The translations under genes and the position numbers were made by a program. Shown one piece after another: positions 3,577 to 33,840 of a stretch of 64,000 bases of DNA (position 1 is its first letter; each line of letters begins with the position of its first letter). The notes under the pieces are model-generated. The model saw only the letters and a program-made list of their open reading frames with translations. It did not search any database and had not been told where the DNA came from. The DNA is taken from NCBI GenBank assembly GCA_964522415.1, contig CAZFVQ010000017.1, forward strand, positions 4,723-68,722, in the 5' to 3' direction. Source of the stretch: an uncultured Rikenellaceae bacterium (GTDB lineage Bacteria; Bacteroidota; Bacteroidia; Bacteroidales; VadinHA17).

Positions 3577-3689
3577 CTTAATGTCATGTCCCGCTACCAT
3601 CGGCCATTATTCATTGTTTACAGGAAATCAAGTGATGAATCAGAAGAATTAAACTCTGAGCTTTTCTTCCCGAAAGCGTTGAACAGTGG

Positions 3690-3878
3690 TTTCCGGCAGG
3701 TCTTCTGACTTGTCCCGGTCCGGCGAAGCCTTCCCATTCCGTCTGTCGGAACAGTGGCAGGGTATCACAGGACCATCATCGTAATAACGATCGGGCATCA
3801 CAGCAGCGGGTACTGTCGCGGATTCTCACCGCATTCCCTTTTCATTGCAACAATTACTACAGGTTGCAAAACCAGAAC
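3690..3878 (-). promoter_or_regulatory. Cobalamin (AdoCbl) riboswitch upstream of btuFCD
   Basis: Minus strand reads GGTTTT...AAAAGGGAATGCGGTGAGAATCCGCGACAGTACCCGCTGCTGTG...GCCACTG...GGGAAGGC...AAGTCAGAAGACCTGCC, which are the conserved cobalamin-riboswitch blocks including the B12 box. A TATCTTTGC -7 promoter element lies just upstream (about 3882-3890). Confidence 0.95.
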
Positions 3879-3996
3879 AAAGCAAAGATATACTTTTTAT
3901 GTTATACACAAAGGATCCGGATTTTCATTGAGGCGAAACAGCTATCCGCTATCATGCTGAAAGCAATGTGGAAACCATTCAACTGATAATGATCTC

Positions 3997-7374: not shown

Positions 7375-9597
7375 CTAGCGGTTATGGTCTTCAAATTCTG
7401 ACTGGTCAATCATTTTAACTTTTTCCTCAAGGATTTTGATCATATTTTTTGCATTGTCAATCTTTTCCCTGACCTCACGAATCATTGTTTCGGCATTGAT
7501 CGATTTGGTAAAAAATCCGATATTGTTTTCCCAGAGTACTATATCATTTTCCAGTTGCTTGATTTTTATAAAAAATTTATCGCGTTCATTTCTGATTTTT
7601 CTTGATGCATTGGGATTTGTTTTTAGATTTTCCAGTCTGGATCTGAACTTGAGAATACTTTTATCATCATCTCCGATTTTCAGCCTGTCAAATTCCTTGT
7701 TCAGTGTGATACGGTACTTGTTTGTAATCTCATCCTTTCTGTTAAAGGGAACAAATCCTATTTCAGCCCATCTCCGCTGGATGTCCTTAAGTCGTTCGAA
7801 GGCTTCCTCTATGTCCGCCCCTGCATCAAATTTTTCAATTTCCTGGATCAGTGCAAGTTTTGCTTTTAGATTATCTTCATAGGATGTATCCAGATCATTG
7901 AAAAACTCCGCCTTTTTGTCAAAAAAATGGTCACAGGCTTTCCGGAATCTTTTCCAGAGTTTTTCGGATTGCTTTCTGGGGACAGGACCGACATCCTTCC
8001 AGTTTTTTTGAAGTTTTATAAGGGCATCCGTGGTTGCTTTCCAGTCGGTACTGTCCTGCAGTGCCTCTGCCTGAAGACACAAATCAATTTTAAGCTGGAG
8101 ATTGGTCTGTTGTACTTCCTTATTGTCGGCATAGAAATTTCTTTTTTTATCGAAAAAGCTGTCACATGCATCCCGGAATCTCTGATATACCTTATTATTT
8201 TGTTTTTTTGGCGCAAATCCGATTGTTCTCCACATTTTCTGCAGCGCCATTATTTTTTCGGCTTTTTCATCAAATTCCTTGAAATTCGTAATTTCGAGAA
8301 GATTTATTTCCTCCACTTCCTCACACAGGGCTATCTTTGCTTCCAGATTTCTGCGCTGAACATCCTTCTGATTTTCGAAGTATTCATAATGCCGCTTATT
8401 TATCTGAGAAGTTGCCTCCCTGAAGCGTTCCCATATTTCATTTTTCGATTCAATGGGTACAGGACCTATTTCACGCCACTGATTATGATATTCCTGCAGG
8501 ACACGAAAGGCGTTTACCGGATTTGGTTCAAGAAGAAGTTCTTCAGCTTTTTCACACAACAGCACTTTGGTTTCAAGATTCTTTTTCAGATCAAGGTCAC
8601 GTAACTCTTTATTAATTTTGATATAATCATAAAAAATTTCCACGTGATGATGATAATTCTCCCAAAGGTGCTTCACTGCGTTCTGGGGAACCACACCTGT
8701 CGAATGCCACTCATTCTGAAGTGATCTGAATTCATTGAAAGTTTTGTTTATTGATTCCTCACGGTTGACAAGTTCTTTTATCTTGTCGATTATCTCATAT
8801 TTCTTCTTAAGGTTTTCGTATTTTTCGGCTTCCTGTATCCTGTTAAAATCAGTCTTCTTTTGCCTGTATTTATCCAGAAGGTGCTTAACCCTTGCTTCAA
8901 GCGGATCGACCCAGGAACGGTAATCCTCAAGAGTGCCACCGCCTTCCAGGAATTTATTCTTTCTTTCTTCAGCTTCCTGCTTTAGCTTTTTATAAAAAAA
9001 TACCTTTAACCTGTCTACATCATTCCGAATTTCCGACGGCGGCCTGTTATCAATCAGAAGTGCCAGTGTCTCGACAAGATCATTCTTCGAATAACCAGAA
9101 TAATCAACAGGGGGGAGTTCAATATCATCAAGATTTTCGACTTCACTTTCGTGTTCCTCAGTTCCGGATTGATTTTCATGCTCCCTTACTGTTTTCCTTT
9201 TTCTTTTTACAGGAATTCCATCTTCCTTGTCGTGCTGTTCCCCGTCTGCATGCTCACTTTCAGCCTCTACTCCGGCAGTCTGATCATCCACGGCAGGCTC
9301 CCCTTCGGGCCGTTCCCCGTCTGCATGCTCACTTTCAGCCTCTACTCCGGCAGTCTGACCATCCACGGCAGGCTCCCCTTCGGGCCGTTCCCCGTCTGCA
9401 TGCTCACTTTCAGCCTCTACTCCGGCAGTCTGACCATCCACGGCAGGCTCCCCTTCGGGCCGTTCCTTCTGATTATCAATAATTCTGGCTGCCGGAATTA
9501 CTTCACCATTTGTATTTCTCTCAGTTCCGGGGGCATTTTCATTTGCCCCGGATTGTTCATTACGAACAGAGTCATCCGGATCTTTCTCTATTATCAT
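7375..9597 (-). CDS. DUF349 domain-containing protein with an acidic repetitive N-terminus
   Basis: Repeated helical units of the form K..LCE.AE...LQ..W..IG.VP......W.RFR.ACD.FF, typical of DUF349. Confidence 0.85.
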   Translation of the reverse strand: MIIEKDPDDSVRNEQSGANENAPGTERNTNGEVIPAARIIDNQKERPEGEPAVDGQTAGVEAESEHADGERPEGEPAVDGQTAGVEAESEHADGERPEGEPAVDDQTAGVEAESEHADGEQHDKEDGIPVKRKRKTVREHENQSGTEEHESEVENLDDIELPPVDYSGYSKNDLVETLALLIDNRPPSEIRNDVDRLKVFFYKKLKQEAEERKNKFLEGGGTLEDYRSWVDPLEARVKHLLDKYRQKKTDFNRIQEAEKYENLKKKYEIIDKIKELVNREESINKTFNEFRSLQNEWHSTGVVPQNAVKHLWENYHHHVEIFYDYIKINKELRDLDLKKNLETKVLLCEKAEELLLEPNPVNAFRVLQEYHNQWREIGPVPIESKNEIWERFREATSQINKRHYEYFENQKDVQRRNLEAKIALCEEVEEINLLEITNFKEFDEKAEKIMALQKMWRTIGFAPKKQNNKVYQRFRDACDSFFDKKRNFYADNKEVQQTNLQLKIDLCLQAEALQDSTDWKATTDALIKLQKNWKDVGPVPRKQSEKLWKRFRKACDHFFDKKAEFFNDLDTSYEDNLKAKLALIQEIEKFDAGADIEEAFERLKDIQRRWAEIGFVPFNRKDEITNKYRITLNKEFDRLKIGDDDKSILKFRSRLENLKTNPNASRKIRNERDKFFIKIKQLENDIVLWENNIGFFTKSINAETMIREVREKIDNAKNMIKILEEKVKMIDQSEFEDHNR
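9237..9466. repeat. 75-bp tandem repeat, about 3 copies, in-frame in DUF349 (25-aa unit ERPEGEPAVDGQTAGVEAESEHADG)
   Basis: CCCGTCTGCATGCTCACTTTCAGCC... starts at 9241, 9316 and 9391; I see one substitution among the copies. Confidence 0.95.
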
Positions 9598-9896
9598 AGC
9601 AAGTCCTTTCTAATTTCAGGTCTCTATTGGAAATCTTAACCATGTAAGCTATCATGGACATTTAAGCTACGAAAATATTGAAATATTTAATAAACTCAAA
9701 GGCCCGGAGAAATTAATATGACAATCTGTTAATTACATCTGCCATATAATGAGAGTTTAAATATATTTTCACTTTCTTTTTTACAATAGTTCATTAAATT
9801 TTTGAGTCTTTTGATTCCCTTCAAATATATATATTTGATTATGAATGCATTATTAAAACATGAATGATAATAAATTTGCATAAGGAATATTTTGTT

Positions 9897-10076
9897 ATGA
9901 GTACTACAAGAGTATTATTAATCATTGCATTACTGGCACTTGCGGGATTCAGTCTTTACCGGAAAAATTCCAGGCAGAAGCAGAGAGAACAGGAAATTGG
10001 ACAAAAAAAAGACAGCGGGAAATCTTTTTCATCCGAATTTCAAAAGGATGATTATGAACCTTATTCAGGGAATTAA
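9897..10076 (+). CDS. Small single-pass membrane protein, 59 aa, unknown function
   Basis: MSTTRVLLIIALLALAGFSLYRK N-terminal TM followed by a charged tail ending DDYEPYSGN; AT-rich upstream region with TATATTTG. Confidence 0.6.
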   Translation: MSTTRVLLIIALLALAGFSLYRKNSRQKQREQEIGQKKDSGKSFSSEFQKDDYEPYSGN

Positions 10077-10082: not shown

Positions 10083-11372
10083 TCAAAGTCTGTTTTTTGT
10101 GGCAAGATGCCGGAAGGGATTAACCACCTTCTGCAGAAGTCTCAGGCTGTCTGTCAATATCTCGGCTGTTCCCTGCATGTTCTGGGTAAATTCAAGTTCC
10201 CTGCCATAAAGAGTTTTTAGTCCCCCTGGCAGAATTATCTCTATTATATAAGCATCCCCGGCCGGGACAAGTGATTTGGATTCCACAATTCCACGCACCA
10301 TTCCGTATTCGAGATAGGGATATCCGGCAAGCTTGATATTTACGGCCTGGCCCGGTCTGACTTTTCCAGATCTGTACATATTGAGATCAACCCTTCCGAT
10401 ATAATTTCCCGGATCAAGGGGAACGACACTCAAAACAGGTTCATCCCTTGCCACCATCTGATTCTGCTTCCAGAATTTTGTAAAGGTGACAATGCCGTCT
10501 ACAGGAGATATGATCAGATAGGTATTTTCCCAAATTCGTATCTGTGCTTTAAGATTGTTGAGGGATTCTGTCAGAACGGAAAATAATCTTGCTCTTTCTT
10601 CGACCATTTTTATCCTGTAATCCTGCAACTCCTGATTTTTCTGTGCGAGTTCAAGGATTTTGGCTGCATGATCAAGCCTGACGTCCTGGAGTTCAATATT
10701 GATTTTGTTGAAGGTCTGGCGCGAGATATCGAGTTCGCTTTCAGAAAACACTTTATCAGCAAAAAGGGATGAATCCCTGGTGAATTTTTTTGCTTCAATA
10801 CGTTGGTTTTCAAGATAAAATTTTTCTTTTTCTTTTACTCTTAGGATATATTCCTCCAGCCCTTCTATTTCCCGGATAACCGAAGATATCTTATATCCGT
10901 AAAAATCATTTTTAACATAGTTCTCATAATCGGACAGGTTTTTAAGAAAACTACCCCAGTATTCCTGTATCTCACCAAGTTCAGAGAAAGATGGAAGGGA
11001 TCCGGCCGATATCGACCCGGGATCCTGTATCGCCTCAATATTCTCTCTCAGTTTCCTAACCTGATCAATTGATGCAGCTGTTTCCATCACAGCAAGCAAT
11101 CGGCCTGTACGAACCGTCTCACCATCGCTGACATACCAGTTTAAAATACGTCCGCTTATTTTTGACACAAGAGTAACCGGAGGATTCTCCGTGGTAATCT
11201 GCACAGGCGACGGAACCACATTTGGATAACGGATAATCCAGGCAAAAGCCAGGATAATCAGAATAACTGCAGAAATTGCAGCAGTTCCCCATCTGACGAG
11301 TTTCCCCGGCGGATTTGAAATAATCTCACGAACAGCTTCGGAATACAGTATTTCCGTTTTATCTTCTTTCAT
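10083..11372 (-). CDS. HlyD-family type I secretion membrane-fusion (adaptor) protein
   Basis: Cytoplasmic N-terminus (EIISNPPGKLVRWG), one TM, biotinyl-lipoyl half motifs (SKISGRI; ISPVDGIV), long coiled coil, GQAVNIKLAGYPYLEYG; directly downstream of the PCAT. Confidence 0.93.
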   Translation of the reverse strand: MKEDKTEILYSEAVREIISNPPGKLVRWGTAAISAVILIILAFAWIIRYPNVVPSPVQITTENPPVTLVSKISGRILNWYVSDGETVRTGRLLAVMETAASIDQVRKLRENIEAIQDPGSISAGSLPSFSELGEIQEYWGSFLKNLSDYENYVKNDFYGYKISSVIREIEGLEEYILRVKEKEKFYLENQRIEAKKFTRDSSLFADKVFSESELDISRQTFNKINIELQDVRLDHAAKILELAQKNQELQDYRIKMVEERARLFSVLTESLNNLKAQIRIWENTYLIISPVDGIVTFTKFWKQNQMVARDEPVLSVVPLDPGNYIGRVDLNMYRSGKVRPGQAVNIKLAGYPYLEYGMVRGIVESKSLVPAGDAYIIEIILPGGLKTLYGRELEFTQNMQGTAEILTDSLRLLQKVVNPFRHLATKNRL

Positions 11373-11381: not shown

Positions 11382-13568
11382 TTAATTGCCAAGTTCAAGC
11401 TGGTTTTTAATAAGATTAAAATAAAATCCTTTCTGTTCAATAAGCGAATCATGGTTTCCTGTTTCCACTATCCGCCCTTTATCCATAACAACAATTTTAT
11501 CCGCATTTCTCACAGTGCTGAGTCTGTGTGCAACAATAACCACAGTTTTTTTCCTGAAATATCCTGCAAGATTTTCAACAATGGCTTTTTCATTGTTGGC
11601 ATCAAGAGAGTTAGTCGCTTCATCGAATATCAGTATATCCGGATCTTTATACAGAACACGGGCAATAAGAATTCTTTGTTTCTGTCCTTCACTCAGGCCA
11701 TGCCCGTTTGCCCCGATTTTTGTGTTATAACCCAAGGGGAGTGATTCAATGAATTCCCTGATGTTTGCCATTTCAACTGCCTTGAATAGTCTTTCCTCAT
11801 CAATTTCTGAATTACCAGGAGAAATATTTGATGCGATGGATTCCGGAAAAATAAAACCATCCTGCATAACGGCTCCGGTTTTTTCTCTCCAGATTCTGAG
11901 ACTGAGGTTTGTAAGCCTGGTGTCTCCTACAAGGATTTCTCCCATGACAGGCTGGTAGAATCCAAGGATCAGCTTGAGCAGGGTTGTTTTGCCGCTGCCG
12001 CTTGTTCCCACAACAGCAGTTGTTTTATTTTCCCCGATGACGAGATTTATATCCTGTAAAACAAAAGGTGAATGAGGCCCTTCATACTGAAATGACAAAT
12101 TATTAATTATCAAATCTTTCCTATCAGGAAGCCGTGAAATTTTTGAATCAGGATCTGCTTCCTCTTCTTCCATCCCGTGAACTTCGGCAAGCCTGTTCAG
12201 GCTCATTCCGGCATCCTGTGTTGTACTGAAAAATCCTATGATCTGATTCAGGGGAACATTGAGCTGACCTATGATGAACTGGACAGCGAGCATCATACCA
12301 AGTGTCATATTCCCTTTCAGAACTGCAGTTGCTGAAACGACTGTGATCAGAAGATTTGTTATCTCATTGAGAAAAGTGCCTCCGGCAGTCTGATACTGAA
12401 GCAATCCCAGTCCCTTCGATTTCAGGGCAAACAGCGAAGCCTGCAGATTTTCCCAGTCCCAGCGTTTCAGCGATTCGCTCTGGGTAAGCTTTATTTCCTG
12501 CATCCCATTCACAATATTTATAAGCTTGCTGTTGGCTACTGACATCTCACGGAACCTCTCATGATCAAGTCTTGCCCTTGATTTCATAAATACCGACACC
12601 CAAAGCACATACAATACCGATCCGGTAAGAAAAAGAGCCAGTATTTTCAGATTGTAGACTGCAAGAACGATACTGAACACGATGATATTGAAAAATGAAA
12701 ACAATATGCTCAGGCTGGTTGAGGTCAGAAAATTCTCTATTCTGTTGTTATCATCAATTCTCTGAAGAATATCACCTGTAAGTTTAGTATCGAAGAATGC
12801 TATGGGCAGGGACATCAGTTTCCTGAGAAAGCCGGAAATTATTGATACATTGACACGGGCTCCGATATGAAGAAGCAGCCATCCTCTGATGAATTCCACT
12901 GACATACGGCCGATTACCAGAGCGAGTTGGGCAAAGAGTATCAGATATATGAAGCCCAGATCGCTGTTATTGAGACCGGTATCAATTATTGCCTGCGTAA
13001 GGAAGGGAATAATAAGCTGAATTACACTGCCAATAAGCAATCCCAGCATCAGCTGGCCGAAATATTTTTTATACAGCTTAAAATATCTTGCAAGGAATCT
13101 GAAGCCGTTCACGGGTTCAGATTCATTTTCTTTTTCCAGCAGTGCCGGGGTGGGTTCCAGGATCAGCACCAGCCCGGCCGGTTTGCCATCTTCCAGAGTA
13201 CTTGCCCATTTTTTTATAAATTCATCCTTGTTCAGGGAAAGGAGGCCTTCAGCAGGATCAGCAATCAGAATTTTATTTTTCCTTATCCTGTAAACAACAA
13301 CAAAGTGTTTCTGCCTCCAGTGTACTATACAGGGCATTGGAACCTTGTCAAACAACATATCGAAGGGGATTTTAACCCCGATAGTCCTGAATCCCAGGTT
13401 ACCTGCAGCCTCTGACAAGCCAAGAAAAGAAACTCCTTCCCGCGTTATATAACATTTTCGACGGATTGATTCAAGATTGAAGTTTTTTTTATAATAGGAT
13501 GCTACCATTTTAAGGCAGGCAGGACCACAATCCATTGCATCTGGCTGTCTTACAAAAGGAAATGACAT
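11382..13568 (-). CDS. Peptidase C39-containing ABC transporter (PCAT; SunT/LagD/ComA-like)
   Basis: N-terminal QPDAMDCGPACL (catalytic Cys) and HWRQKHFVVVY (catalytic His), ABC membrane domain, Walker A GTSGSGKTT, LSEGQKQR, IFDEATNSLD. Confidence 0.95.
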   Translation of the reverse strand: MSFPFVRQPDAMDCGPACLKMVASYYKKNFNLESIRRKCYITREGVSFLGLSEAAGNLGFRTIGVKIPFDMLFDKVPMPCIVHWRQKHFVVVYRIRKNKILIADPAEGLLSLNKDEFIKKWASTLEDGKPAGLVLILEPTPALLEKENESEPVNGFRFLARYFKLYKKYFGQLMLGLLIGSVIQLIIPFLTQAIIDTGLNNSDLGFIYLILFAQLALVIGRMSVEFIRGWLLLHIGARVNVSIISGFLRKLMSLPIAFFDTKLTGDILQRIDDNNRIENFLTSTSLSILFSFFNIIVFSIVLAVYNLKILALFLTGSVLYVLWVSVFMKSRARLDHERFREMSVANSKLINIVNGMQEIKLTQSESLKRWDWENLQASLFALKSKGLGLLQYQTAGGTFLNEITNLLITVVSATAVLKGNMTLGMMLAVQFIIGQLNVPLNQIIGFFSTTQDAGMSLNRLAEVHGMEEEEADPDSKISRLPDRKDLIINNLSFQYEGPHSPFVLQDINLVIGENKTTAVVGTSGSGKTTLLKLILGFYQPVMGEILVGDTRLTNLSLRIWREKTGAVMQDGFIFPESIASNISPGNSEIDEERLFKAVEMANIREFIESLPLGYNTKIGANGHGLSEGQKQRILIARVLYKDPDILIFDEATNSLDANNEKAIVENLAGYFRKKTVVIVAHRLSTVRNADKIVVMDKGRIVETGNHDSLIEQKGFYFNLIKNQLELGN

Positions 13569-13716: not shown

Positions 13717-14289
13717 TTGTTTAAAAGGATAACAGATTCAAAGATCATTGCAGGCATTAAGGCTCAGGATGATAATATTCTTGAATGGATTTATGATAAT
13801 TATTACCAAACCGTAGAAAATCACGTAATTAAAAATAGCGGTTCACCTGATGATGTGCCTGATATTTTTCAGGATACCATCATTATTCTCTACAAGCAAA
13901 TCTCGGCTGATTCTCTCAGTTTATCCTCCGATCTCAAAGCTTACTTTTTTGGAATAGCACGTAATCTGTGGAATGCCAGACTCAGACAAAAGAACAGGAT
14001 GACCGGAATCGGGTCCCGCTTCGATATGGCAGATGAATCAGGCTCAGAAGAGAGCGAGGACCTGATTTTTGAAAGAATCATGAGCAGGGCATTCTATAAA
14101 TTAAAACCGGATTGTCAGACCATTCTGACCTTATTTTCTGACGGTTGCACTTACCAGGAGATTACCGGGAAGATGCAGCTGAAAAACGAAGTATATGCAA
14201 GGAGAAAGAAATACTTGTGTAAGGAGGCACTCCTTGAACTTATCAAGACCGATGCCGAATATCAGGAATATTTACGCTTCCTGAAATAG
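13717..14289 (+). CDS. ECF-type (sigma-70 group 4) RNA polymerase sigma factor
   Basis: 190 aa; region 2 (DDVPDIFQDTIIILY...LKAYFFGIARNLW) and region 4 HTH (KLKPDCQTILTLF...TYQEITGKM...YARRKKYLCK); TTG start. Confidence 0.9.
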   Translation: MFKRITDSKIIAGIKAQDDNILEWIYDNYYQTVENHVIKNSGSPDDVPDIFQDTIIILYKQISADSLSLSSDLKAYFFGIARNLWNARLRQKNRMTGIGSRFDMADESGSEESEDLIFERIMSRAFYKLKPDCQTILTLFSDGCTYQEITGKMQLKNEVYARRKKYLCKEALLELIKTDAEYQEYLRFLK

Positions 14290-17200
14290 AAAATCAAAGC
14301 GGTCACGGGCAGTGAAAGCAGAAGGAATACTATTGCCATTAATCTGACAGGCGGATATATCGGTGAATTTTCTCCGTAAACAATCAGAGTTGCCCAGAAA
14401 TATGGATGAGATTTAAGCTGTGTGGCATTTTTAAGATAAGCAGTCCGCGATTTTTTCAGTGATTTGCTTTTAGTATAACCTTTTTTAAGATTTTCATAGA
14501 ATCTGCTTACTATTTCAGTTCCTGATTTATCCTCAATTTCCCACATAGACATTACCACAGACCGGCTTCCGGAATAAAGAAATCCCCTTGCAAGGCTAAG
14601 AATGCCTTCACCAGATGACAAAATACCTGTTCCTGTATTACAGGAACTCAGCACCACCATTTTAGCCCTGAGCGGCATTCCGTAAACTTCCGACGTATAC
14701 AGCAGTCCGTCATCCGGACTGTCATTCATCTGTGAAAATATCATTGCTGAATTCATGGGGTGCTGATCGTTAAGCAATGTATGCATTGCCAGATGAATAA
14801 TATTGTAGTTCAGTGCCTCGTTTTTAAAAACTGATTCTTTAGCCTTTTCATTCAGAAAAAGATTACCACGGGAAATTGAAGCGACATATTCCGCTTCCTG
14901 GCGTGCATATGGCAGGTCATAGAGCAAACCCCTTTCCTGCTGGTTTTGAGGAAAGAGCGAATCAAGCTTTATATCAGTTCCGTAAAAGGGAGCAAAAGCT
15001 GCCAGTCTGATCTTTCCCGGAATATTTCTGGAACCAATCTCCTTCATTAATGTTGCCGAATATGCATATGAAATATCAAAATCATTCATCAGGTAATCCA
15101 GTTTCCTGTAAAGGATACCTTCTCCTTCATATTTTGAGGAGAGTATCGTTTCGAAAGGAAGATATGACAGATAATTGTCGGGAGATATCAGCAGATTTCG
15201 GGATATAAAATACTTTTGCACCGGTTCGACAAGCATTTTATAAAGTGTTGTACCGGCCTCCTGATATTTGATAAATGCATTCCTTGCATCCTTGACGAGT
15301 GCCGGATTTGAAAGCAAATCCCTGAATTCACCGAGAGTTTTAAACAACACTGAATCAATCCTGTACGATACCAGTTCCTTGTACTTTTTGTTGACAACAA
15401 AAATATAAAGCAGGGAATCCGCAACAATATAACTGATGTAATTATTTTTTCTTCCGACTATTGACGGTATTTCTGTCATTAAAGGGGCGACTGTATTGTA
15501 CTTGAGTGCGAAATATTCCGGATAGTATTTCTCAAAAGTCAGTATCAGTGAGTCACGTGCCCTGATCGATACCAGTATCTTTTCATTCCACCCGGCAAGA
15601 AGCAGTTTGTTTGGTTTTGCCTTTTCTTTTTCCAGTGAGATCTTCGAATTCAGCATTCCTATTTCCCGTTGAAGGGATTGTTCATAATCTGCAATTTCCG
15701 GAGGAATGTGCAACTGTATGGCATTCAGTTCACGTGTCGTTGCCAGCAAACCTGCAACCTTGCTTTTTTCTGCAATCTGGAAGGTTTTTTCAAGATATGA
15801 ACGATCTGAGCTTAGCCTGTAACATAATTCAGAATCCCTTATTGCCATCAGGTACGATTTTCTGTAATGATCCCCCAGTACTATCCTGCTCTCCTCCTCA
15901 CTGATATTCAATCTTATCTTGTCAACGGCATCAATGATATGATGCGAAGTGGCAGCTGCCGCTTTGAGTATTCCCATATCCTGTGTTTCCGAAAAAATAT
16001 CCGTCAGTATCTCATATTTTGAACGGAGTATCCTTACATATCGCCTGTCGGCCTGTACCGAATCAATTTCAGGATTCGCAAGAGAATCGAATGATTGTCC
16101 TGTCTGCGATCCATAAAAAAGAAGTTCCTGAATTTTTGCAAGAGCCTCCCTGCTCTGACCGTTGTAATGCAGGGCCCTGGCATATCCTTCATAGACCGGA
16201 TCCCGAAGATTGGCATCCTGCGGATGTCGTGAAAGATAATCATTGCAAAGGGAGAAATACTTTATTGCAGCTGCGGCATCATTCCTGTAATTAAGCAAAT
16301 ACGCAGCATAGTTCTTTAATGCCTCTGTATAATATCTGGAATCCGTACCATAATAGCTGCCCGATCTTTTCAGCAATTCAGTCAGCAGCGATTCGCCCTT
16401 CCTTATATTACCTGCATTTGCCTGGGCAATTGCATAAGTATGTATCATGTTGAAGGAATGAATGGAATTATCCTTAACCGCAAGTTCAATTCCCTTACTG
16501 AAATATTCTTCCTCCCTTTCAGTCATACCAAGATATCCGTAATTTATTGCCATGCTGTTGATCAGTGTAATATAATTCTGATCCATTTCCATATGATTCT
16601 TTTCCCAGACCGATTCAGCCTGCTCAAAATAGATCCTTGCCTTTGCATAATCTCCCATTCTTGCATACCCTGCTCCAATACTGCTGTATAAATCAGAGAG
16701 ATCTCTTTCCTGAAAAGCTTTCAGCATTCCCAGTGCCCTGTCCGTGTATTCAATGAAATTTTTATAATCATTGTTTAAAACCGATGCGCCGATAAGTGTA
16801 GTATATGCGGAAGCAATTTCAGGCCGGATTTCATCATAAAATTTCCCGGATATATCTATATACCTGGTCAGATAATCCCGGACTCCCGAATAATTACCAA
16901 GATGATTATGTGCCACACCAAGATTAAAAAGAGCTTTAAAATAACGGTCGTCTTCAATATTCAAGCTGTCTTTCAGGCGTATCGATTCTCTCAGATGAAT
17001 AACGGCATTATCGTATCTTGAAGAAAGCAGATTACTTACCCCGGTGTAATAGAGTAATTCAGCTTCAGTCTGCAAGTCGGACTGATTTACGATAATTAAT
17101 TTTTCAAGACTGTCGGCAAAAGACAAGAGGCCCGCGATGTTTCCTCCCGAACTGAAATTACGGATTCTCTTACTGATTTTATCAAGGGAATCTGAATTTT

Positions 17201-17351
17201 CAGGCTTGCTCTGACGGGTCATTAAAAAAATATTGTTACGAGAGGAAAAATCCGGAAAACTGACACAATATTCTGCCCGGATCAAACACAGGGCTGCTGC
17301 TATAATTAAAAACCTGAATCTTAAATAGTGTTTAACTGACTTCCGGTACAC
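14262..17351 (-). CDS. TPR-CHAT protein (caspase-like CHAT peptidase) with N-terminal signal-like segment and C-terminal TM anchor
   Basis: Multiple TPR-like helix pairs; CHAT motifs LLISPDNYLSYLPFE, LPYARQEAE, IIHLAMH (His), VVLSSCNTG (Cys), GEGILSLARGF.YSGSRSVVMSMWEIED, HPYFWA; hydrophobic C-terminus followed by RKRKYS. Confidence 0.93.
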   Translation of the reverse strand: MYRKSVKHYLRFRFLIIAAALCLIRAEYCVSFPDFSSRNNIFLMTRQSKPENSDSLDKISKRIRNFSSGGNIAGLLSFADSLEKLIIVNQSDLQTEAELLYYTGVSNLLSSRYDNAVIHLRESIRLKDSLNIEDDRYFKALFNLGVAHNHLGNYSGVRDYLTRYIDISGKFYDEIRPEIASAYTTLIGASVLNNDYKNFIEYTDRALGMLKAFQERDLSDLYSSIGAGYARMGDYAKARIYFEQAESVWEKNHMEMDQNYITLINSMAINYGYLGMTEREEEYFSKGIELAVKDNSIHSFNMIHTYAIAQANAGNIRKGESLLTELLKRSGSYYGTDSRYYTEALKNYAAYLLNYRNDAAAAIKYFSLCNDYLSRHPQDANLRDPVYEGYARALHYNGQSREALAKIQELLFYGSQTGQSFDSLANPEIDSVQADRRYVRILRSKYEILTDIFSETQDMGILKAAAATSHHIIDAVDKIRLNISEEESRIVLGDHYRKSYLMAIRDSELCYRLSSDRSYLEKTFQIAEKSKVAGLLATTRELNAIQLHIPPEIADYEQSLQREIGMLNSKISLEKEKAKPNKLLLAGWNEKILVSIRARDSLILTFEKYYPEYFALKYNTVAPLMTEIPSIVGRKNNYISYIVADSLLYIFVVNKKYKELVSYRIDSVLFKTLGEFRDLLSNPALVKDARNAFIKYQEAGTTLYKMLVEPVQKYFISRNLLISPDNYLSYLPFETILSSKYEGEGILYRKLDYLMNDFDISYAYSATLMKEIGSRNIPGKIRLAAFAPFYGTDIKLDSLFPQNQQERGLLYDLPYARQEAEYVASISRGNLFLNEKAKESVFKNEALNYNIIHLAMHTLLNDQHPMNSAMIFSQMNDSPDDGLLYTSEVYGMPLRAKMVVLSSCNTGTGILSSGEGILSLARGFLYSGSRSVVMSMWEIEDKSGTEIVSRFYENLKKGYTKSKSLKKSRTAYLKNATQLKSHPYFWATLIVYGENSPIYPPVRLMAIVFLLLSLPVTALIFYFRKRKYS

Positions 17352-17594
17352 CTTAAATCTTAGTTTATAATTCTTATATATCCGATTTTCAAAAATACCT
17401 TCTATTTTTGAACCTTTAACAAATATTGATCACAAACCCGAATTCACAAAGTACTGTATAAGTGCACTTTAAAAAAAAGTGCAATTTTTTCTTATATTTT
17501 CGTGTCACAAAAGAGGCTTAAATGACATGTATTAGCAGAACTATCAATAATTAATTTCAGAAAATTAAGTGGTAACAAATAAAACTAAAAAAAA

Positions 17595-17738
17595 ATGAAA
17601 AACCTGAATTCTTCCAAGACGAGAGACATTTTTGCCGATTATGAACTTACAATTGATGAGATGTTCAATATAAGAGGTGGCGATAAAGTGCGTAGTGAAC
17701 CCATCATACTGCCTCCCTCCCCACCCATTTTGATTTGA
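17595..17738 (+). CDS. Double-glycine-leader precursor peptide, 47 aa (not in the ORF track)
   Basis: Hand translation: MKNLNSSKTRDIFADYELTIDEMFNIRGG|DKVRSEPIILPPSPPILI*. ELTIDEMFNIRGG fits the ELSxxELxxIxGG leader consensus cleaved by C39 peptidases; an A-rich translation-initiation region precedes the ATG; a PCAT is encoded 4 kb away. Confidence 0.85.
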   Translation: MKNLNSSKTRDIFADYELTIDEMFNIRGGDKVRSEPIILPPSPPILI

Positions 17739-17912
17739 GCTGCAAATATATTATTATTAATATCAGGTACAGGCTTTTTTATACTGTTGTTTTAATTATC
17801 CGGCAAGCGGGATAAAGAATTCCTGCCCCTGGAAGGATATATATATAATAAAGTGGCTCTATAAAAACAGCCTGGCATGCTGATTGATGAGTATTATAAT
17901 AAACATATATCC

Positions 17913-18662
17913 ATGAAAACTATTGATTTTTCTTATTTCATTGAGCGATTTCTTGCGGGAGAAATGAATGAAGCTGAAGAAGAGTGGTTTCAAAATGAGC
18001 TTGGCAGGAATGAGAAACTCCGCCACGAAATTACTCTGAGACAGCTCACAAACACAACCCTTAAGGATCATGATGTCCTGCAGCTCAGGAATAAGCTGAC
18101 TGCAATTGCATCAAAGAAAGCTGAACCAAAACCATCCAAAAACGGACGCAGGCACAAGGATCTTACCAGGGCAGCAGTATTTGCAGGACTGGTTCTCTTC
18201 GGAACGCTTGCTTTTCTCAACAACAGAACAATGTCCACCGATGAGATCTTTGATCATTATTACAAGTTTTATGACATTACAACTCCCCTGCGATCGGTAA
18301 ATGATGCCGGCAATACTGATTATCTGACAGCCATTGAATACTTCAATGTAAAGGATTATTACAATGCAGCGCATTATTTCAGCAAGGTTCTGAGTAGTGA
18401 TCCCAGATTTATTGAATCGGTTCTGATGACAGGAGTATCAAAATTCGAGGAAGAAAAATATTCCGAGGCAAAATCATCATTTACAAAAGTTATGGACAAC
18501 AGGGATAATCTTTTCTTTGAAGATGCTCAGTGGTACCTCTCATTATGTTATCTGAAGACATCCGAAAAGGATAAGGCTGTTAATACATTGAAAGCTGTAA
18601 AGGAATCGGGCAGTGTTTACAGCAGGAATGCAGGGAAAATACTTAAAAAGATAAGGTTGTAA
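17913..18662 (+). CDS. Single-pass membrane TPR protein, putative anti-sigma factor
   Basis: N-terminal helical domain (IERFLAGEMNEAEEEWFQNEL) like the sigma-binding N-terminus of Bacteroidetes anti-sigmas, a TM (AAVFAGLVLFGTLAFLN), then TPRs ending AQWYLSLCYLK...A...L. Start chosen at ATG 17913. Confidence 0.75.
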   Translation: MKTIDFSYFIERFLAGEMNEAEEEWFQNELGRNEKLRHEITLRQLTNTTLKDHDVLQLRNKLTAIASKKAEPKPSKNGRRHKDLTRAAVFAGLVLFGTLAFLNNRTMSTDEIFDHYYKFYDITTPLRSVNDAGNTDYLTAIEYFNVKDYYNAAHYFSKVLSSDPRFIESVLMTGVSKFEEEKYSEAKSSFTKVMDNRDNLFFEDAQWYLSLCYLKTSEKDKAVNTLKAVKESGSVYSRNAGKILKKIRL

Positions 18663-18720
18663 ACAGCCTGGCAGGCCCTGCAGAGGGGTGATATCACCAT
18701 TAATTCCAAAATAGAGACAA

Positions 18721-30706: not shown

Positions 30707-30723
30707 TTACTTAAAATCAAACC

Positions 30724-33700: not shown

Positions 33701-33801
33701 TGGTTCCGGCCATATATACCTATATCTCAAGTGAAATAGCTGTCACTGCCGATACAGGCAAAACTGAAATTAAAACTGAAATTAATGAAACGACCATATA
33801 A
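30724..33801 (+). CDS. RND efflux permease (AcrB/HAE family)
   Basis: 1025 aa; GIVVDDAIIVMEN, KNGILIVEFA, RFRPILMT; 12-TM RND layout. Confidence 0.95.
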   Translation: MSLSSVSIERPVLTSVFAIVILLFGIVGFTFLGVREFPSVDPAIITVMTSYPGANSDVIETQITEPLEQNINGIPGVRSLTSVSSQGSSRITVEFELSVDLETAANDVRDKVSQAMRLLPRDCDPPTVSKADADANPILFLTVESSKRSLLQLSEIAELTLKEQLQTISGVSAVSIFGQKRYAMRLWIDPAKLAGYGLTPMDVRNTINRENVELPSGSIEGTNTQLSIRTMGLMTTPQEFNDLILKQSGDNIVRFRDVGRAELGPEDIRGILKRDGVPMVQIAMIPQPGSNHIDIVDEVYTRLEYIQKDLPDDVKVNVNYDNTEYIRSSIKEVQHTIYIAFFLVVIIIYVFLRNWKATLIPILVIPISLVGSFFIMYLAGFTINVLTLLALVLAIGIVVDDAIIVMENIFVKVESGMEPVEAGLKGSQEIFFAIIATTITLISVFFPIVFLEGITGRLFREFSVVMAGTVAISAFLALTLTPMISTKLLRREKKPSWFYRKTERMFEGLNKVYQNGLDSFLKRRQYAIVILVAALGIIVLLWLTLPAEMAPLEDRSQITVNMSATEGATYEFLLAYADDVAQLVEEEVPERLSYTSMVRGGSFGNLRIMLEKPNDRERTQQQIAEDLAAELRKKTRARSFVIQQSTFGSRRSGQPVQYVLQATSIDKLREILPEFMAKVMDSDILEMADVNLKFTKPELRIHIDREKATNLGVSTQNIGQTLQLALSGQRFGYFFMNGKQYQILGELAREDRNKPLDLKSLYVRTDNQEMIQFDNLVSLSEETAPPQLYRYNRFVAATVSSGLTKGRTISEGLAEMDRIAAEVLDDSFRTALAGDSKDFRESSSSLMFAFSLALILIFLVLAAQFESFKDPIIVMGTVPLALFGALLFMWYFNITMNIFSQIGIIMLIGLVSKNGILIVEFANQRKRAGMKKQEAIRYAAAARFRPILMTSLATIFGIAPLALGLGEGAQSRVAMGIAVVGGMIFATFLTLFVVPAIYTYISSEIAVTADTGKTEIKTEINETTI

Positions 33802-33840
33802 AGAATTTACCCACACGGGCATGACTTTAGATTCATGGGA

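What the first reader, a model, noticed from the sequence alone, without database searches (positions are those of the whole stretch)
14262..17351. Caspase-family CHAT protease with apparent extracytoplasmic, C-terminally anchored topology
Seen: a hydrophobic N-terminal signal-like segment (FRFLIIAAALCLIRA), a long TPR region, a CHAT domain with His (HLAMH) and Cys (LSSCNTG), then a TM (LMAIVFLLLSLPVTALIFYF) and a positive-inside tail RKRKYS. Established: the characterised CRISPR-linked CHAT proteases are cytoplasmic. Inference: this enzyme faces the periplasm on the inner membrane, the same compartment as the partner's TPR domain, and could act as a site-1 protease in regulated intramembrane proteolysis.
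Basis: partly seen in the sequence, partly recalled or inferred. Interest (0 to 1): 0.7.

Follow-up and report, generated by a model that had tools for sequence, protein, structure and literature searches.

The report
Periplasmic caspase-like protease in a sigma-factor switch
This gene encodes a caspase-family (TPR-CHAT) protease that most likely sits on the outer face of the inner membrane of an uncultured Bacteroidales bacterium and is always encoded beside an ECF sigma factor, its membrane anti-sigma factor and (in this lineage) a small exported peptide, which suggests a peptide-triggered proteolytic gene switch that nobody has tested.

Summary
ORF 14262-17351(-) encodes a 1029-aa protein with a signal-like N-terminus, about 350 aa of KLC/LGN-type TPRs, a helical middle region, a CHAT domain (Pfam E 2e-54; invariant H857/C904), a C-terminal TM helix and the tail RKRKYS.

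The topology signals are conserved: C-terminal TM plus basic tail in 79/79 orthologous loci, N-terminal hydrophobic segment in 77/77. About 90% of 132 full-length cluster representatives in a 1.8-billion-protein library show the same. The bulk of the protein is therefore almost certainly periplasmic.

The site-1-protease idea is plausible but unproven.
- The protease is linked to a related ECF sigma and a TM/TPR anti-sigma in 5 of 6 independent distant contexts.
- A fused precedent exists: M. xanthus DdvA has a periplasmic TPR-CHAT for which self-cleavage has been proposed.

In this lineage a double-glycine-leader peptide (17595-17738) with a C39 ABC exporter and HlyD adaptor is added. The peptide/anti-sigma operon has an invariant promoter, GTCACA-N14-GACATGTA. 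Relatives carry the same promoter class upstream of their sigma genes.

Best reading: a split DdvA-like switch, possibly fired by an autoinducing peptide. It is a new variant of a known kind. No cleavage, binding or topology was shown.

The parts
14262..17351 (-). TPR-CHAT protease gene, 1029 aa, GTG start
   Evidence: ORF. Pfam CHAT E 2.3e-54 plus TPR families. 326 relatives among GTDB species genomes, the best 80 all from Bacteroidales MAGs.
17271..17351 (-). N-terminal signal-like segment (residues 1-27): basic n-region, hydrophobic core LIIAAALCLI, then RA/EY
   Evidence: Hydropathy. A hydrophobic segment is kept in 77/77 orthologous loci despite sequence divergence. Whether it is cleaved is not determined.
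16122..17189 (-). TPR region (residues ~55-410), KLC/LGN type; fastest-evolving part of the protein; candidate ligand-binding domain
   Evidence: Pfam TPR_12. AF2 pLDDT 80-93. Foldseek matches to LGN, KLC-peptide and Rap-CSF complexes. Mean p-distance 0.60 and the best correlation with peptide divergence.
15282..16064 (-). Helical middle (scaffold) region, residues ~430-690
   Evidence: AF2 secondary structure. Many invariant residues at 480-620.
14373..15263 (-). CHAT (caspase-fold) protease domain, residues 697-993
   Evidence: Pfam. AF2 model of residues 620-1029 has pLDDT 91.6. Foldseek: Csx29 E 5.8e-15, separase 1.9e-11, DdvA 6.5e-11, gingipain R 8.6e-6.
14781..14783 (-). Codon of putative catalytic His857 (IHLAMH*TL)
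   Evidence: Invariant in 32 orthologues and in 67 diverse CHAT proteins. Coordinates checked.
14640..14642 (-). Codon of putative catalytic Cys904 (LSSC*NTG)
   Evidence: Invariant. Coordinates checked.
14265..14348 (-). C-terminal TM helix (residues 1002-1023) plus cytoplasmic basic tail RKRKYS (1024-1029)
   Evidence: TM plus net-positive tail in 79/79 loci and in 119/132 full-length cluster representatives. AF2 helix 1002-1028, only ~8 residues after the last CHAT strand.
13717..14289 (+). ECF-type sigma-70 family factor (190 aa), convergent with the CHAT gene; the 3' ends overlap by 28 nt
   Evidence: TIGR02937 46 bits (cut-off 42.9) and Sigma70_r2. Present in every locus. The overlap is 16-46 nt in all 80 loci. 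A TAnnTTTG-type housekeeping promoter box lies upstream.
17492..17535 (+). Conserved promoter-like element: T-rich stretch, then GTCACAAA-N12-GACATGTA (core 17504-17531), ~63 nt upstream of the peptide ATG
   Evidence: Unique in the window. Fixed spacing in 73/75 loci. One site per locus in 78/81 loci and none elsewhere in 1.56 Mb. The same GTYAMC-N14-(G)ACAT class lies upstream of sigma genes and neighbouring genes in distant relatives.
17595..17738 (+). Double-glycine-leader peptide gene (47 aa): leader MKNLNSSKTRDIFADYELTIDEMFNIRGG, predicted mature peptide DKVRSEPIILPPSPPILI (17682-17735)
   Evidence: ORF. Conserved in about 75 of 78 loci that hold the region, with leader ..EEMI.VRGG and core ending P-[IV]-[IVL]-[KL]-P-x-x-P-P-[IV]-x-I. 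No Pfam or NCBIfam family. Metatranscriptome contigs cover its 3' end.
17913..18662 (+). Anti-sigma-like partner (249 aa from the conserved second Met; the ORF opens at 17877). Cytoplasmic N-domain residues 1-86, TM 87-102 (18171-18218), periplasmic TPR domain 103-249
   Evidence: Alignment of 72 orthologues. TPR hits. Homologues in distant loci are translationally coupled to a sigma gene. No known anti-sigma Pfam domain, so the role is inferred.
18285..18296 (+). Conserved P-L-R-S in the juxtamembrane periplasmic linker of the partner; speculative cleavage site (P1 Arg)
   Evidence: RS is kept in at least 90% of orthologues. An Arg at a similar position is seen in distant subfamilies, e.g. 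PITRGES. Separase cuts after Arg (PMC11506125, section 8). This is inference only.
11382..13568 (-). Peptidase-C39 ABC exporter (PCAT), 728 aa, with the intact motif QPDAMDCGPACL
   Evidence: Pfam Peptidase_C39 E 1.9e-37, ABC_membrane, ABC_tran; TIGR01193/TIGR03796. Syntenic in all loci.
10083..11372 (-). HlyD-family membrane-fusion adaptor of the exporter
   Evidence: Pfam HlyD_3, TIGR01843. Syntenic.

Best explanation
**What it is.** The gene encodes a type-I inner-membrane protein. Its TPR array and caspase-fold CHAT protease domain face the periplasm. A C-terminal TM helix holds them at the membrane, leaving a six-residue basic tail in the cytoplasm.

**What it belongs to.** It is the protease arm of a three-part switch conserved across Bacteroidota. 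The other two parts are an ECF-type sigma factor and a single-pass anti-sigma-like protein with a periplasmic TPR domain. In effect this is the M. xanthus DdvA design (anti-sigma fused to a periplasmic TPR-CHAT) split into two polypeptides.

**Proposed mechanism in this lineage (all steps inferred):**
1. The 47-aa precursor is cut after its Gly-Gly by the C39 ABC exporter and is exported with the HlyD adaptor.
2. The roughly 12-18-aa proline-rich mature peptide, with the conserved C-terminus PP[IV]x[IL], accumulates.
3. The peptide binds a periplasmic TPR groove. The protease's own fast-evolving TPR array is the better candidate.
4. Binding switches on the His857/Cys904 dyad.
5. The protease cuts the partner's juxtamembrane periplasmic segment (site 1).
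6. An RseP-type site-2 protease, not encoded in the window, finishes the job and the sigma factor is released.
7. The sigma factor transcribes the peptide/anti-sigma operon from GTCACA-N14-GACATGTA. This gives positive feedback through the peptide and a reset through new anti-sigma.

**Shown by sequence and comparison:** the domain make-up, the conserved topology signals, the conserved catalytic dyad, the fold, the gene linkage and the promoter class.

**Not shown:** the location itself, protease activity, the substrate, peptide binding and sigma release.
For: **Domains and dyad.**. The CHAT fold model has pLDDT 91.6 and matches Csx29, separase and DdvA.

**Topology.**. The same N-signal plus C-terminal TM architecture occurs in about 90% of 132 full-length representatives. 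The partner has the opposite orientation.

**Linkage beyond phylogenetic inertia.**
- L081: CHAT, a sigma/anti-sigma operon and a GG-leader peptide.
- L083: CHAT flanked by two sigma/anti-sigma pairs.
- L086: sigma, anti-sigma and CHAT consecutive on one strand.
- L085 and the P0219 contig: CHAT within 6 kb of the pair.

**Promoter.**
- The window motif is unique and invariant.
- The same GTYAMC-N14-(G)ACAT class lies upstream of sigma genes in relatives. It also lies upstream of both the peptide and the sigma gene in L081.
- The sigma gene and the exporter operon carry housekeeping TAnnTTTG boxes instead.

**Peptide.** It has a canonical GG leader and a conserved short non-cationic core. The C39 motif of the exporter is intact.

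**Co-variation.** Peptide divergence tracks the periplasmic parts: CHAT TPR partial r 0.33, CHAT protease 0.27, partner periplasmic domain 0.24. It does not track the partner's cytoplasmic domain or the ABC membrane domain, both about 0.

**Expression.** Metatranscriptome contigs cover the peptide/anti-sigma operon.

**Precedent.** DdvA has a periplasmic TPR-CHAT; removing it exposes DdvA to RseP, and CHAT self-cleavage has been proposed (PMC11506125).
Against: - No experiment bears on location, activity, substrate or ligand.
- Relatives in Flavobacteriia-like genomes keep CHAT, sigma and anti-sigma but have no GG peptide. L070 has lost the peptide. The peptide therefore cannot be the universal trigger.
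- The partner has no recognisable anti-sigma Pfam domain.
- One distant C-anchored CHAT (L084) has no sigma pair on its 12-kb contig.
- The 80 close loci are one syntenic lineage, so their agreement counts as a single observation.
- The co-variation signal is weak and favours fast-evolving domains.
- Metatranscriptome evidence is contig presence only.
- No site-2 protease gene is in the window.
- What the sigma factor controls beyond its own loop is unknown. Only one site lies in the window.
Confidence: 0.5

Rival explanations
1. The protease and anti-sigma pair senses some other envelope or environmental cue. The peptide is an output of the sigma regulon, for example a signal aimed at other cells or a bacteriocin-like product, and not the trigger.
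For: The core trio exists without any GG peptide in L083, L085 and L086, and L070 has lost it. In those relatives the promoter class sits upstream of secreted or outer-membrane protein genes, so regulon outputs vary. The peptide gene lies behind the sigma-type promoter, as an output gene would.
Against: The mature peptide is short (12-18 aa), proline-rich and neutral or acidic, which is unlike cationic bacteriocins. Its core co-varies weakly with the periplasmic domains but not with the exporter. A signal gene sitting under the pathway it activates is the usual autoinducer layout (general knowledge; ComC and AgrD are examples).
Confidence: 0.2
2. The CHAT protease acts on the exported peptide itself, either maturing it or destroying it (signal turnover), and not on the anti-sigma protein.
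For: Enzyme and peptide would share a compartment. Peptide and protease genes are divergent neighbours. Peptide divergence correlates with all CHAT-protein regions.
Against: The protease stays linked to the sigma/anti-sigma pair where no peptide exists. The peptide core has no residue conserved as an obvious internal cleavage site; its variable N-terminal part is mostly Gly/Asp/Glu.
Confidence: 0.1
3. It is an antiphage sensor like DdvA. The periplasmic TPR-CHAT detects a phage component and releases a sigma factor that turns on defence genes located elsewhere.
For: The only characterised periplasmic TPR-CHAT (DdvA) and the craspase Csx29-Csx30-RpoE axis both serve defence.
Against: There are no PADLOC matches for the protease, sigma or partner. 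No CRISPR, CBASS or other defence genes lie nearby. The locus is embedded in conserved housekeeping synteny (QueE-like, PorE-like, DUF349, YidC) and not in a variable island. A self-made exported peptide does not fit a phage cue.
Confidence: 0.08
4. The CHAT protein works mainly as a non-catalytic co-receptor or scaffold (TPR-TPR complex with the partner), or it only cleaves itself.
For: TPR arrays are protein-interaction modules. DdvA's active site is incomplete and in a resting state.
Against: His857 and Cys904 are invariant in orthologues and across 67 diverse CHAT proteins. The protease domain is the most conserved part of the protein, with mean p-distance 0.35 against 0.60 for the TPRs. 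The fold matches active Csx29 better than DdvA (TMq 0.61 against 0.48).
Confidence: 0.07
5. The protein is cytoplasmic and merely tail-anchored, and the N-terminal hydrophobic stretch is not a targeting signal.
For: No topology experiment or dedicated predictor was available.
Against: This would put the conserved basic tail outside and leave a conserved basic-n-region/hydrophobic N-terminus unused, against the positive-inside rule. Both signals are kept in 79/79 and 77/77 loci and in about 90% of distant representatives.
Confidence: 0.03

Closest known systems
DdvA-DdvS of Myxococcus xanthus (transmembrane anti-sigma with a periplasmic TPR-CHAT; PMC11506125; PDB 8rot/8rw5)
   Same: Both have a periplasmic TPR plus scaffold plus CHAT body of similar size (DdvA CHAT 702-991 with H862/C907; here 697-993 with H857/C904). 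Both are paired with an ECF sigma. The same mechanism has been proposed for DdvA: CHAT as site-1-like protease, then RseP. Foldseek E 6.5e-11.
   Different: - DdvA is one polypeptide: an N-terminal zinc anti-sigma domain, a TM, then TPR-CHAT.
- Here the anti-sigma-like protein and the protease are separate. The protease is anchored by a C-terminal TM instead, and the partner lacks the zinc motif.
- DdvA controls a CBASS/CRISPR island and is thought to sense phage. Here there are no defence genes, and a self-made GG-leader peptide with its exporter is attached.
- The model fits Csx29 better than DdvA.
Craspase: Csx29 (TPR-CHAT) with Cas7-11, Csx30, Csx31 and RpoE (type III-E CRISPR)
   Same: This is the best structural match (E 5.8e-15, TMq 0.61). 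It follows the same logic: an allosterically activated TPR-CHAT cuts a protein that restrains an ECF-type sigma factor.
   Different: Craspase is cytoplasmic, RNA-guided and bound to Cas7-11. The NCBIfam Csx29 model scores 15.7 bits against a cut-off of 300. No cas genes are present here.
Gram-positive double-glycine peptide pheromone systems (ComC/ComAB-type) and other PCAT-exported peptides
   Same: A GG leader of the LSxxEMxxIxGG type, a C39-peptidase ABC exporter with an intact Cys motif, a short mature peptide, and a peptide gene behind a promoter of the pathway it would activate.
   Different: Those peptides are sensed by a membrane histidine kinase. Here no such receptor lies nearby, and the sensing arm would be periplasmic TPR domains, a cysteine protease and an ECF sigma/anti-sigma pair, in a diderm organism.
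Classical regulated intramembrane proteolysis of anti-sigma factors (DegS/RseA/RseP; PrsW/RsiW; Prc/FecR-type)
   Same: A single-pass N-in anti-sigma with a periplasmic domain, and a membrane-tethered periplasmic site-1 protease activated by a peptide-like ligand (DegS is activated by C-terminal peptides of outer-membrane proteins; general knowledge).
   Different: The protease class is unrelated: clan CD cysteine protease rather than serine or metalloprotease. The ligand-binding module would be TPR rather than PDZ. None of the steps has been shown here.
RRNPP peptide receptors (Rap, NprR, PlcR, PrgX)
   Same: TPR-type domains that bind short exported peptides. The Rap-CSF complex is among the structural matches of the TPR region.
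   Different: RRNPP receptors are cytoplasmic and act after peptide re-import. They have no protease domain and occur in Firmicutes.
Gingipains (clan CD cysteine proteases of Porphyromonas)
   Same: An extracytoplasmic caspase-fold cysteine protease in Bacteroidota. Foldseek E 8.6e-6 to RgpB.
   Different: Gingipains are secreted through the type IX system, are degradative virulence enzymes, have no TPRs or TM anchor, and have no sigma-factor linkage.

Membership tests
CHAT domain proteases (Pfam PF12770; caspase/separase fold, clan CD) | Match to the family profile above its curated threshold | tested here: met
   185.2 bits against a cut-off of 24, E 2.3e-54, full-length profile match 1-288/289.
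CHAT domain proteases (Pfam PF12770; caspase/separase fold, clan CD) | Conserved His-Cys catalytic dyad | tested here: met
   H857 and C904 are invariant in 32 orthologues and in 67 diverse CHAT proteins.
CHAT domain proteases (Pfam PF12770; caspase/separase fold, clan CD) | Caspase-like fold | tested here: met
   AF2 model pLDDT 91.6. Foldseek: Csx29 5.8e-15, separase 1.9e-11, DdvA 6.5e-11, SAVED-CHAT, gingipain. This is a predicted structure, not a solved one.
CHAT domain proteases (Pfam PF12770; caspase/separase fold, clan CD) | Peptide-bond cleavage activity | not testable with these tools
   Needs an enzyme assay.
DdvA-type anti-sigma factors (periplasmic TPR-CHAT fused to a cytoplasmic anti-sigma domain) | TPR-CHAT body located in the periplasm | tested here: inconclusive
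   Topology signals are strong and conserved, but this is a prediction. No SignalP/DeepTMHMM run or experiment was available.
DdvA-type anti-sigma factors (periplasmic TPR-CHAT fused to a cytoplasmic anti-sigma domain) | N-terminal zinc-binding anti-sigma domain and TM in the same polypeptide as the TPR-CHAT | tested here: not met
   The N-terminus is a signal-like segment and the TM is C-terminal. The anti-sigma-like domain is on a separate 249-aa protein that lacks an HxxxCxxC motif.
DdvA-type anti-sigma factors (periplasmic TPR-CHAT fused to a cytoplasmic anti-sigma domain) | Cognate ECF sigma gene adjacent | tested here: met
   The sigma gene at 13717-14289 passes TIGR02937. It is present in all loci and in 5 of 6 distant contexts.
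DdvA-type anti-sigma factors (periplasmic TPR-CHAT fused to a cytoplasmic anti-sigma domain) | Incomplete active site (missing three-helix motif), dimeric arrowhead | tested here: inconclusive
   The model has three helices after the catalytic Cys and fits Csx29 better than DdvA. I could not superpose coordinates or model a dimer.
Type III-E craspase protease Csx29 | Match to the Csx29 model and association with Cas7-11/Csx30 | tested here: not met
   NF041237 scores 15.7 bits against a cut-off of 300. No cas genes were found among the neighbours.
ECF sigma / class I anti-sigma pairs | Partner carries a recognisable anti-sigma domain that binds the sigma factor | tested here: inconclusive
   None of 24 members hits a Pfam anti-sigma family. 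The layout fits: a conserved ~45-aa N-terminal helical domain, one TM and a periplasmic domain. In five distant loci the homologue overlaps the 3' end of a sigma gene. Binding was not tested.
Double-glycine-leader peptides exported by C39 ABC transporters (PCAT substrates) | Leader ending in Gly-Gly with the hydrophobic pattern, and a C39 exporter with catalytic Cys nearby | tested here: met
   Leader ...LTIDEMFNIRGG is conserved in about 75 loci. The exporter shows Peptidase_C39 at E 1.9e-37 with the motif QPDAMDCGPACL. Cleavage and export were not tested. The peptide matches no curated peptide family.
Site-1 proteases of regulated intramembrane proteolysis (a functional class, not a homology family) | Signal-dependent cut in the extracytoplasmic part of an anti-sigma factor that licenses a site-2 protease | not testable with these tools
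   Only circumstantial support: shared compartment, membrane-proximal active site, gene linkage and the DdvA precedent.

The most novel reading that the evidence does not exclude
A peptide quorum-sensing circuit of a new design in a diderm phylum. A double-glycine-leader autoinducer would be read in the periplasm by the TPR array of a membrane-anchored caspase-like protease. The protease then fires an ECF sigma factor by cutting its anti-sigma partner, and the sigma factor in turn drives more peptide. The wider, peptide-less family (more than 100 clusters at 50% identity among the best 150 relatives alone) would then be a general, unrecognised class of site-1 proteases for ECF signalling in Bacteroidota.
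Probability: 0.3. Interest if true: 0.85.

Novelty: new variant of a known kind. Interest (0 to 1): 0.62.

Why it matters
- **Site-1 proteases for Bacteroidota ECF factors.** ECF sigma factors are most numerous in Bacteroidota, at about 22 per genome (PMC7826278). For most of them the trigger and the site-1 protease are unknown. A large, uncharacterised family of periplasm-facing, membrane-anchored TPR-CHAT proteins that travel with a specific sigma/anti-sigma pair would supply a candidate protease class. It would also extend caspase-type regulated proteolysis, known from separase, craspase and the proposal for DdvA, to routine envelope signalling.
- **Peptide signalling in a diderm.** The peptide-coupled version in this lineage would be a rare case of peptide autoinduction in a diderm.
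- **A tractable test for the DdvA idea.** Here the likely ligand is written in the genome and can be synthesised. For DdvA the signal is unknown, and its authors state that this blocks the test.
- **If the proposal is wrong.** The finding is still a well-delimited conserved gene module with a defined promoter.

Tried and rejected
- **Sequence-only PDB searches.** Searches with family profiles returned only generic TPR proteins. DdvA and Csx29 appeared only by fold comparison.
- **Full-length AF2 model.** With 32 close sequences the CHAT region was poor (pLDDT 66.6 overall). TPR occlusion of the dyad could not be assessed, and its Foldseek hits were all TPR proteins.
- **Second homologue search.** A search with the CHAT domain alone returned mostly gene fragments of the same family. 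Depth for the second model came from distant hits of the first search.
- **Peptide families.** No Pfam or NCBIfam family matches the window's peptide. Only the L081 peptide gave sub-threshold hits to bacteriocin leader models.
- **Anti-sigma domain.** No Pfam anti-sigma domain was found in 24 partner homologues.
- **Defence systems.** PADLOC gave no match for the protease, sigma or partner.
- **Attenuator.** The generic promoter/terminator scan and folding of the peptide/anti-sigma spacer gave nothing above shuffles, so an attenuator there is not supported.
- **Literature.** Searches for CHAT combined with ECF, Bacteroidetes or signal peptide found only the DdvA and craspase papers. The ECF re-classification paper does not mention CHAT in its main text, and its supplements are not held.
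- **T9SS or sortase-type signal, considered and dropped.** The C-terminus is not a T9SS domain. The SP[VI]Y stretch before the TM is simply the short linker after the last CHAT strand.
- **Conserved KYS ending as a cytoplasmic docking motif, considered.** It is at least partly explained by overlap with the sigma gene.

Full report
**1. The observation**

The window holds an ORF at 14262-17351 on the minus strand. It has a GTG start and encodes 1029 aa.
- The N-terminus is MYRKSVKHYLRFRF-LIIAAALCLI-RAEY.
- TPR profiles hit residues 138-364, and AF2 models helical repeats from about 55 to 410.
- Pfam CHAT covers residues 697-993 at E 2.3e-54.
- The motifs IHLAMHTL and LSSCNTG are present.
- A 22-residue hydrophobic helix (1002-1023) is followed by RKRKYS and the stop codon.

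In an alignment of 67 CHAT proteins down to about 20% identity, the only invariant His and Cys are H857 (the second His of HLAMH) and C904.

**2. Topology**

No signal-peptide or TM predictor was available, so I used conservation.

A genome scan found 326 relatives in one-per-species genomes. The best 80 loci all come from uncultured Bacteroidales.
- All 79 loci with a complete 3' end keep a C-terminal hydrophobic helix followed by a net-positive tail of 4-9 residues.
- All 77 loci with an intact 5' end keep an N-terminal hydrophobic stretch, usually behind Lys/Arg, although the sequence there is not conserved. This pattern is what a targeting signal shows.

A profile search of 1.84 billion cluster representatives gave 26,204 hits at E<=1e-30. 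Of the 132 full-length proteins among the best 150:
- 119 have the C-terminal TM plus basic tail;
- 119 have an N-terminal hydrophobic segment;
- 108 have both.

For the body to be cytoplasmic, both signals would have to be ignored and the basic tail would have to face outward. I rate that at about 3%.

I cannot say whether the N-terminal segment is cleaved. Many orthologues have a Cys near the end of the hydrophobic core, and a few resemble a lipobox.

The high-confidence model of residues 620-1029 (pLDDT 91.6) places the last CHAT strand (989-993) only about 8 residues before the TM helix. The active site should therefore sit close to the membrane surface.

**3. Fold**

Sequence searches of the PDB see only the TPRs. 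The CHAT-domain model matches the following:

| Target | E-value | Note |
|---|---|---|
| Csx29, the craspase protease | 5.8e-15 | TMq 0.61 |
| Separase | 1.9e-11 | |
| DdvA | 6.5e-11 | TMq 0.48 |
| SAVED-CHAT | 1.6e-6 | |
| Gingipain R | 8.6e-6 | |

The TPR region resembles the peptide-binding TPRs of LGN and kinesin light chain, and the Rap-CSF complex.

**4. Surroundings**

The gene order in the window is as follows.

| Coordinates | Strand | Gene |
|---|---|---|
| 10083-11372 | - | HlyD adaptor |
| 11382-13568 | - | C39-peptidase ABC exporter, intact QPDAMDCGPACL motif |
| 13717-14289 | + | ECF-type sigma factor |
| 14262-17351 | - | The protease |
| 17595-17738 | + | 47-aa ORF |
| 17877/17913-18662 | + | 249-aa protein |

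The sigma gene's 3' end overlaps that of the protease gene by 28 nt.

The 249-aa protein has three parts:
- a conserved ~45-aa N-terminal helical domain, MKTIDFSYFIERY.AGEMNEAE..WF..EL..NEKLR;
- a basic stretch followed by one TM;
- a periplasmic TPR domain.

The 47-aa ORF is a textbook double-glycine precursor: MKNLNSSKTRDIFADYELTIDEMFNIRGG | DKVRSEPIILPPSPPILI. Its features across the related loci are:
- About 75 of the 78 loci that hold the region keep it.
- The leader reads ..EEMI.VRGG.
- The core is short and not cationic. It consists of a few Asp/Glu/Gly residues followed by P-[IV]-[IVL]-[KL]-P-x-x-P-P-[IV]-x-[IL] at the C-terminus.
- One locus has five tandem copies and one has two.
- One locus (L070) has lost it.

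The peptide matches no Pfam or NCBIfam family.

**5. Is the linkage meaningful?**

All 80 close loci share the whole neighbourhood, housekeeping genes included (QueE-like, PorE-like, DUF349). They therefore count as one observation, and I looked at distant relatives.

| Locus (protein) | Similarity to the window protein | What it holds |
|---|---|---|
| L081 (protease P0038) | 29% identity | GG-leader peptide of a different core, divergent from the protease as in the window; convergent sigma + anti-sigma operon whose anti-sigma has the same C-terminal TPR domain |
| L083 (protease P0043) | 34% over the CHAT part | Protease flanked by two overlapping sigma/anti-sigma pairs |
| L086 (partner P0288) | 19-28% identity | Sigma, anti-sigma and protease consecutive on one strand; protease has a signal-like N-terminus and a C-terminal TM plus basic tail |
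| P0219 contig (partner P0219) | 19-28% identity | Protease and a beta-helix gene divergent from the sigma/anti-sigma pair |
| L085 (partner P0237, Flavobacteriaceae) | 19-28% identity | Protease 5.7 kb from the sigma/anti-sigma pair |
| L084 (protease P0039) | distant | No sigma/anti-sigma pair on a 12-kb contig |

The L081 and L083 rows started from protease homologues; the L086, P0219 and L085 rows started from partner homologues.

The trio of TPR-CHAT, ECF sigma and TM/TPR partner therefore recurs in 5 of 6 independent contexts.

In all five distant pairs the partner gene overlaps the end of a sigma gene. This is the best evidence that the partner is an anti-sigma factor, because no Pfam anti-sigma domain is detected.

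The GG peptide appears only in the window's lineage and in L081. It is an add-on and not part of the core.

**6. Promoter evidence**

About 63 nt upstream of the peptide ATG lies a T-rich stretch followed by GTCACAAA-N12-GACATGTA (17492-17535).
- It is unique in the 64-kb window.
- It has fixed spacing in 73 of 75 loci examined. The other two are tandem-copy artefacts of my extraction.
- It occurs exactly once per locus in 78 of 81 sequences and nowhere else in 1.56 Mb.

The sigma gene and the exporter operon instead carry Bacteroidetes housekeeping TAnnTTTG boxes.

Relatives carry the same promoter class:
- In the Flavobacteriia-like relatives, GTTAAC-N14-(G)ACAT lies upstream of the sigma genes. 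It also lies upstream of neighbouring genes for a beta-helix protein, an outer-membrane beta-barrel and type-IX-secreted proteins.
- There are three sites each in L083 and L085, against about 0.1 expected.
- In L081, GGGGTTACCTTTTT...GAATAnTA precedes both the peptide gene and the sigma gene.

The simplest reading is that this is the promoter class read by this family of sigma factors. In the window it drives the peptide/anti-sigma operon, which gives positive feedback through the peptide and negative feedback through the anti-sigma.

Three metatranscriptomes from sludge and wastewater hold contigs over 17635-18717 and almost nothing over the protease, sigma or exporter genes. This is weak evidence, because it rests on contig presence only, but it is consistent.

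**7. Who might bind the peptide?**

Across 61 loci I compared peptide-core divergence with divergence of each domain, controlling for the ABC ATPase domain.

| Domain | Partial r |
|---|---|
| Protease TPR array | 0.33 |
| CHAT domain | 0.27 |
| Partner periplasmic domain | 0.24 |
| Sigma | 0.17 |
| HlyD | 0.17 |
| C39 domain | 0.09 |
| ABC membrane domain | 0.02 |
| Partner cytoplasmic domain | 0.00 |

The TPR array is also the fastest-evolving part of the protease, with p-distance 0.60 against 0.35 for CHAT. This points weakly to the periplasmic parts, and the protease TPRs most of all. Fast-evolving domains are favoured by the method, so I treat it as a lead.

**8. Mechanism**

The best-supported model is a split version of DdvA. 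In M. xanthus, DdvA is an anti-sigma factor whose roughly 900-aa periplasmic domain is a TPR-CHAT. Removing that domain exposes DdvA to RseP. The authors propose signal-induced CHAT cleavage of the juxtamembrane linker as the site-1 step. They cannot test this because the signal is unknown (PMC11506125).

Here the protease is a separate type-I membrane protein and the anti-sigma a separate type-II one. In this lineage a candidate signal is encoded on the spot.

An Arg in the partner's juxtamembrane periplasmic linker is conserved from the window's family (P-L-R-S, nt 18285-18296) to the Flavobacteriia-like subfamilies (PITRGES). Separase cuts after Arg, so this Arg is a speculative P1 site.

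*Shown:* domains, dyad, fold, conserved topology signals, linkage and promoter class.

*Inferred:* location, activity, substrate, ligand, and the involvement of a site-2 protease, which is not encoded in the window.

**9. Rivals**

- **The peptide is an output and the cue is something else.** The peptide-less relatives favour this. I give it 0.2.
- **The protease matures or degrades the peptide.** 0.1.
- **A phage sensor like DdvA.** 0.08. There are no PADLOC hits and no defence genes, and the locus sits in stable housekeeping synteny.
- **A non-catalytic scaffold.** 0.07. This runs against an invariant dyad and a protease domain that is the most conserved part of the protein.
- **A cytoplasmic protein.** 0.03.

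**10. Novelty and score**

The protein is a clear member of the CHAT family. Extracytoplasmic CHAT is not new: DdvA has been solved, and this C-anchored architecture is abundant among unstudied proteins.

What I could not find described in the literature is:
- the two-protein arrangement;
- its recurrent coupling to a specific sigma/anti-sigma family in Bacteroidota;
- the shared promoter class;
- the GG-leader peptide and exporter module attached to it.

I file it as a new variant of a known kind, with interest 0.62. The mechanism is testable with a synthetic peptide, which is its main attraction.

Noticed in passing
window 14262-14289: The protease and sigma genes converge and their 3' ends overlap by 28 nt. 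An overlap of 16-46 nt is kept in all 80 related loci (28 nt in 54 of them). The RKRKYS tail of the protease and the ...EYLRFLK end of the sigma factor are therefore coded on opposite strands of the same bases. This may explain the very conserved KYS ending and could allow transcriptional interference.
   Followed up: partly
L007:7804-8625(-) and 66 other related loci; absent from the window: In 67 of 81 related loci, a gene for a 273-aa soluble histidine kinase core (HisKA + HATPase_c, no TM) follows the anti-sigma gene on the same strand. The operon there is peptide, anti-sigma, kinase. The window's own subclade (window, L001-L004) and L070 lack it, and no copy is found anywhere in the 64-kb window. 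It may be an output arm of the system.
   Followed up: partly
L052 (between anti-sigma and protease), L048, L070: The peptide gene is present in five identical tandem copies in L052 and in two diverged copies in L048. It is missing in L070, which keeps the promoter motif.
   Followed up: partly
L083, L085, L086 (Flavobacteriia-like relatives): These loci have no GG peptide. The family's promoter class (GTTAAC-N14-GACAT) sits upstream of genes for a beta-helix protein, a small outer-membrane beta-barrel, Por_Secre_tail (type IX) cargo and a MamF/MmsF-like membrane protein, which suggests a local regulon of envelope and secreted proteins.
   Followed up: partly
window 17877-17912: The anti-sigma-like ORF opens at ATG 17877. 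All orthologues begin at the second Met (MKTIDFSYF..., 17913), so the true start is probably 17913.
   Followed up: yes
window 17271-17351 and orthologues: Most orthologues have a Cys inside or at the end of the N-terminal hydrophobic core. A few read like a lipobox (for example ..FIVGC..SAGC). The protein might be lipid-modified at its N-terminus as well as TM-anchored at its C-terminus.
   Followed up: no
window 7375-9597(-), repeats at about 9150-9450: The DUF349 protein (740 aa) carries three tandem copies of an acidic ~25-aa unit (ERPEGEPAVDGQTAGVEAESEHADG) near its N-terminus.
   Followed up: no
window 9864-10076(+): A 70-aa ORF with one hydrophobic helix (MSTTRVLLIIALLALAGFSLY...) lies between the DUF349 and HlyD genes. 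It is detectable by tblastn in most related loci, and its function is unknown.
   Followed up: no
window 3678-3891(-): A cobalamin riboswitch (Rfam RF00174, 102.8 bits) lies upstream of a periplasmic-binding-protein / ABC transporter operon (315-3600).
   Followed up: no
window about 36000-46500: A lower-GC stretch (0.35-0.37 against about 0.42) holds a polysaccharide biosynthesis cluster: Wzy-like ligase, glycosyltransferases and a flippase. This is typical of variable surface-glycan loci.
   Followed up: no
window 29612-35260(+): A complete RND efflux operon (HlyD-type adaptor, AcrB-type pump, OEP outer-membrane channel). This is the only TolC-like gene in the window and a possible outer-membrane partner for the peptide exporter, which has none of its own nearby.
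   Followed up: no
window 17463-17483(+): A hairpin followed by a T-run (TGCACTTTAAAAAAAAGTGCA ATTTTTT) lies immediately upstream of the conserved promoter element. It was found by the generic terminator scan, and the total count of such sites was not above shuffles.
   Followed up: no
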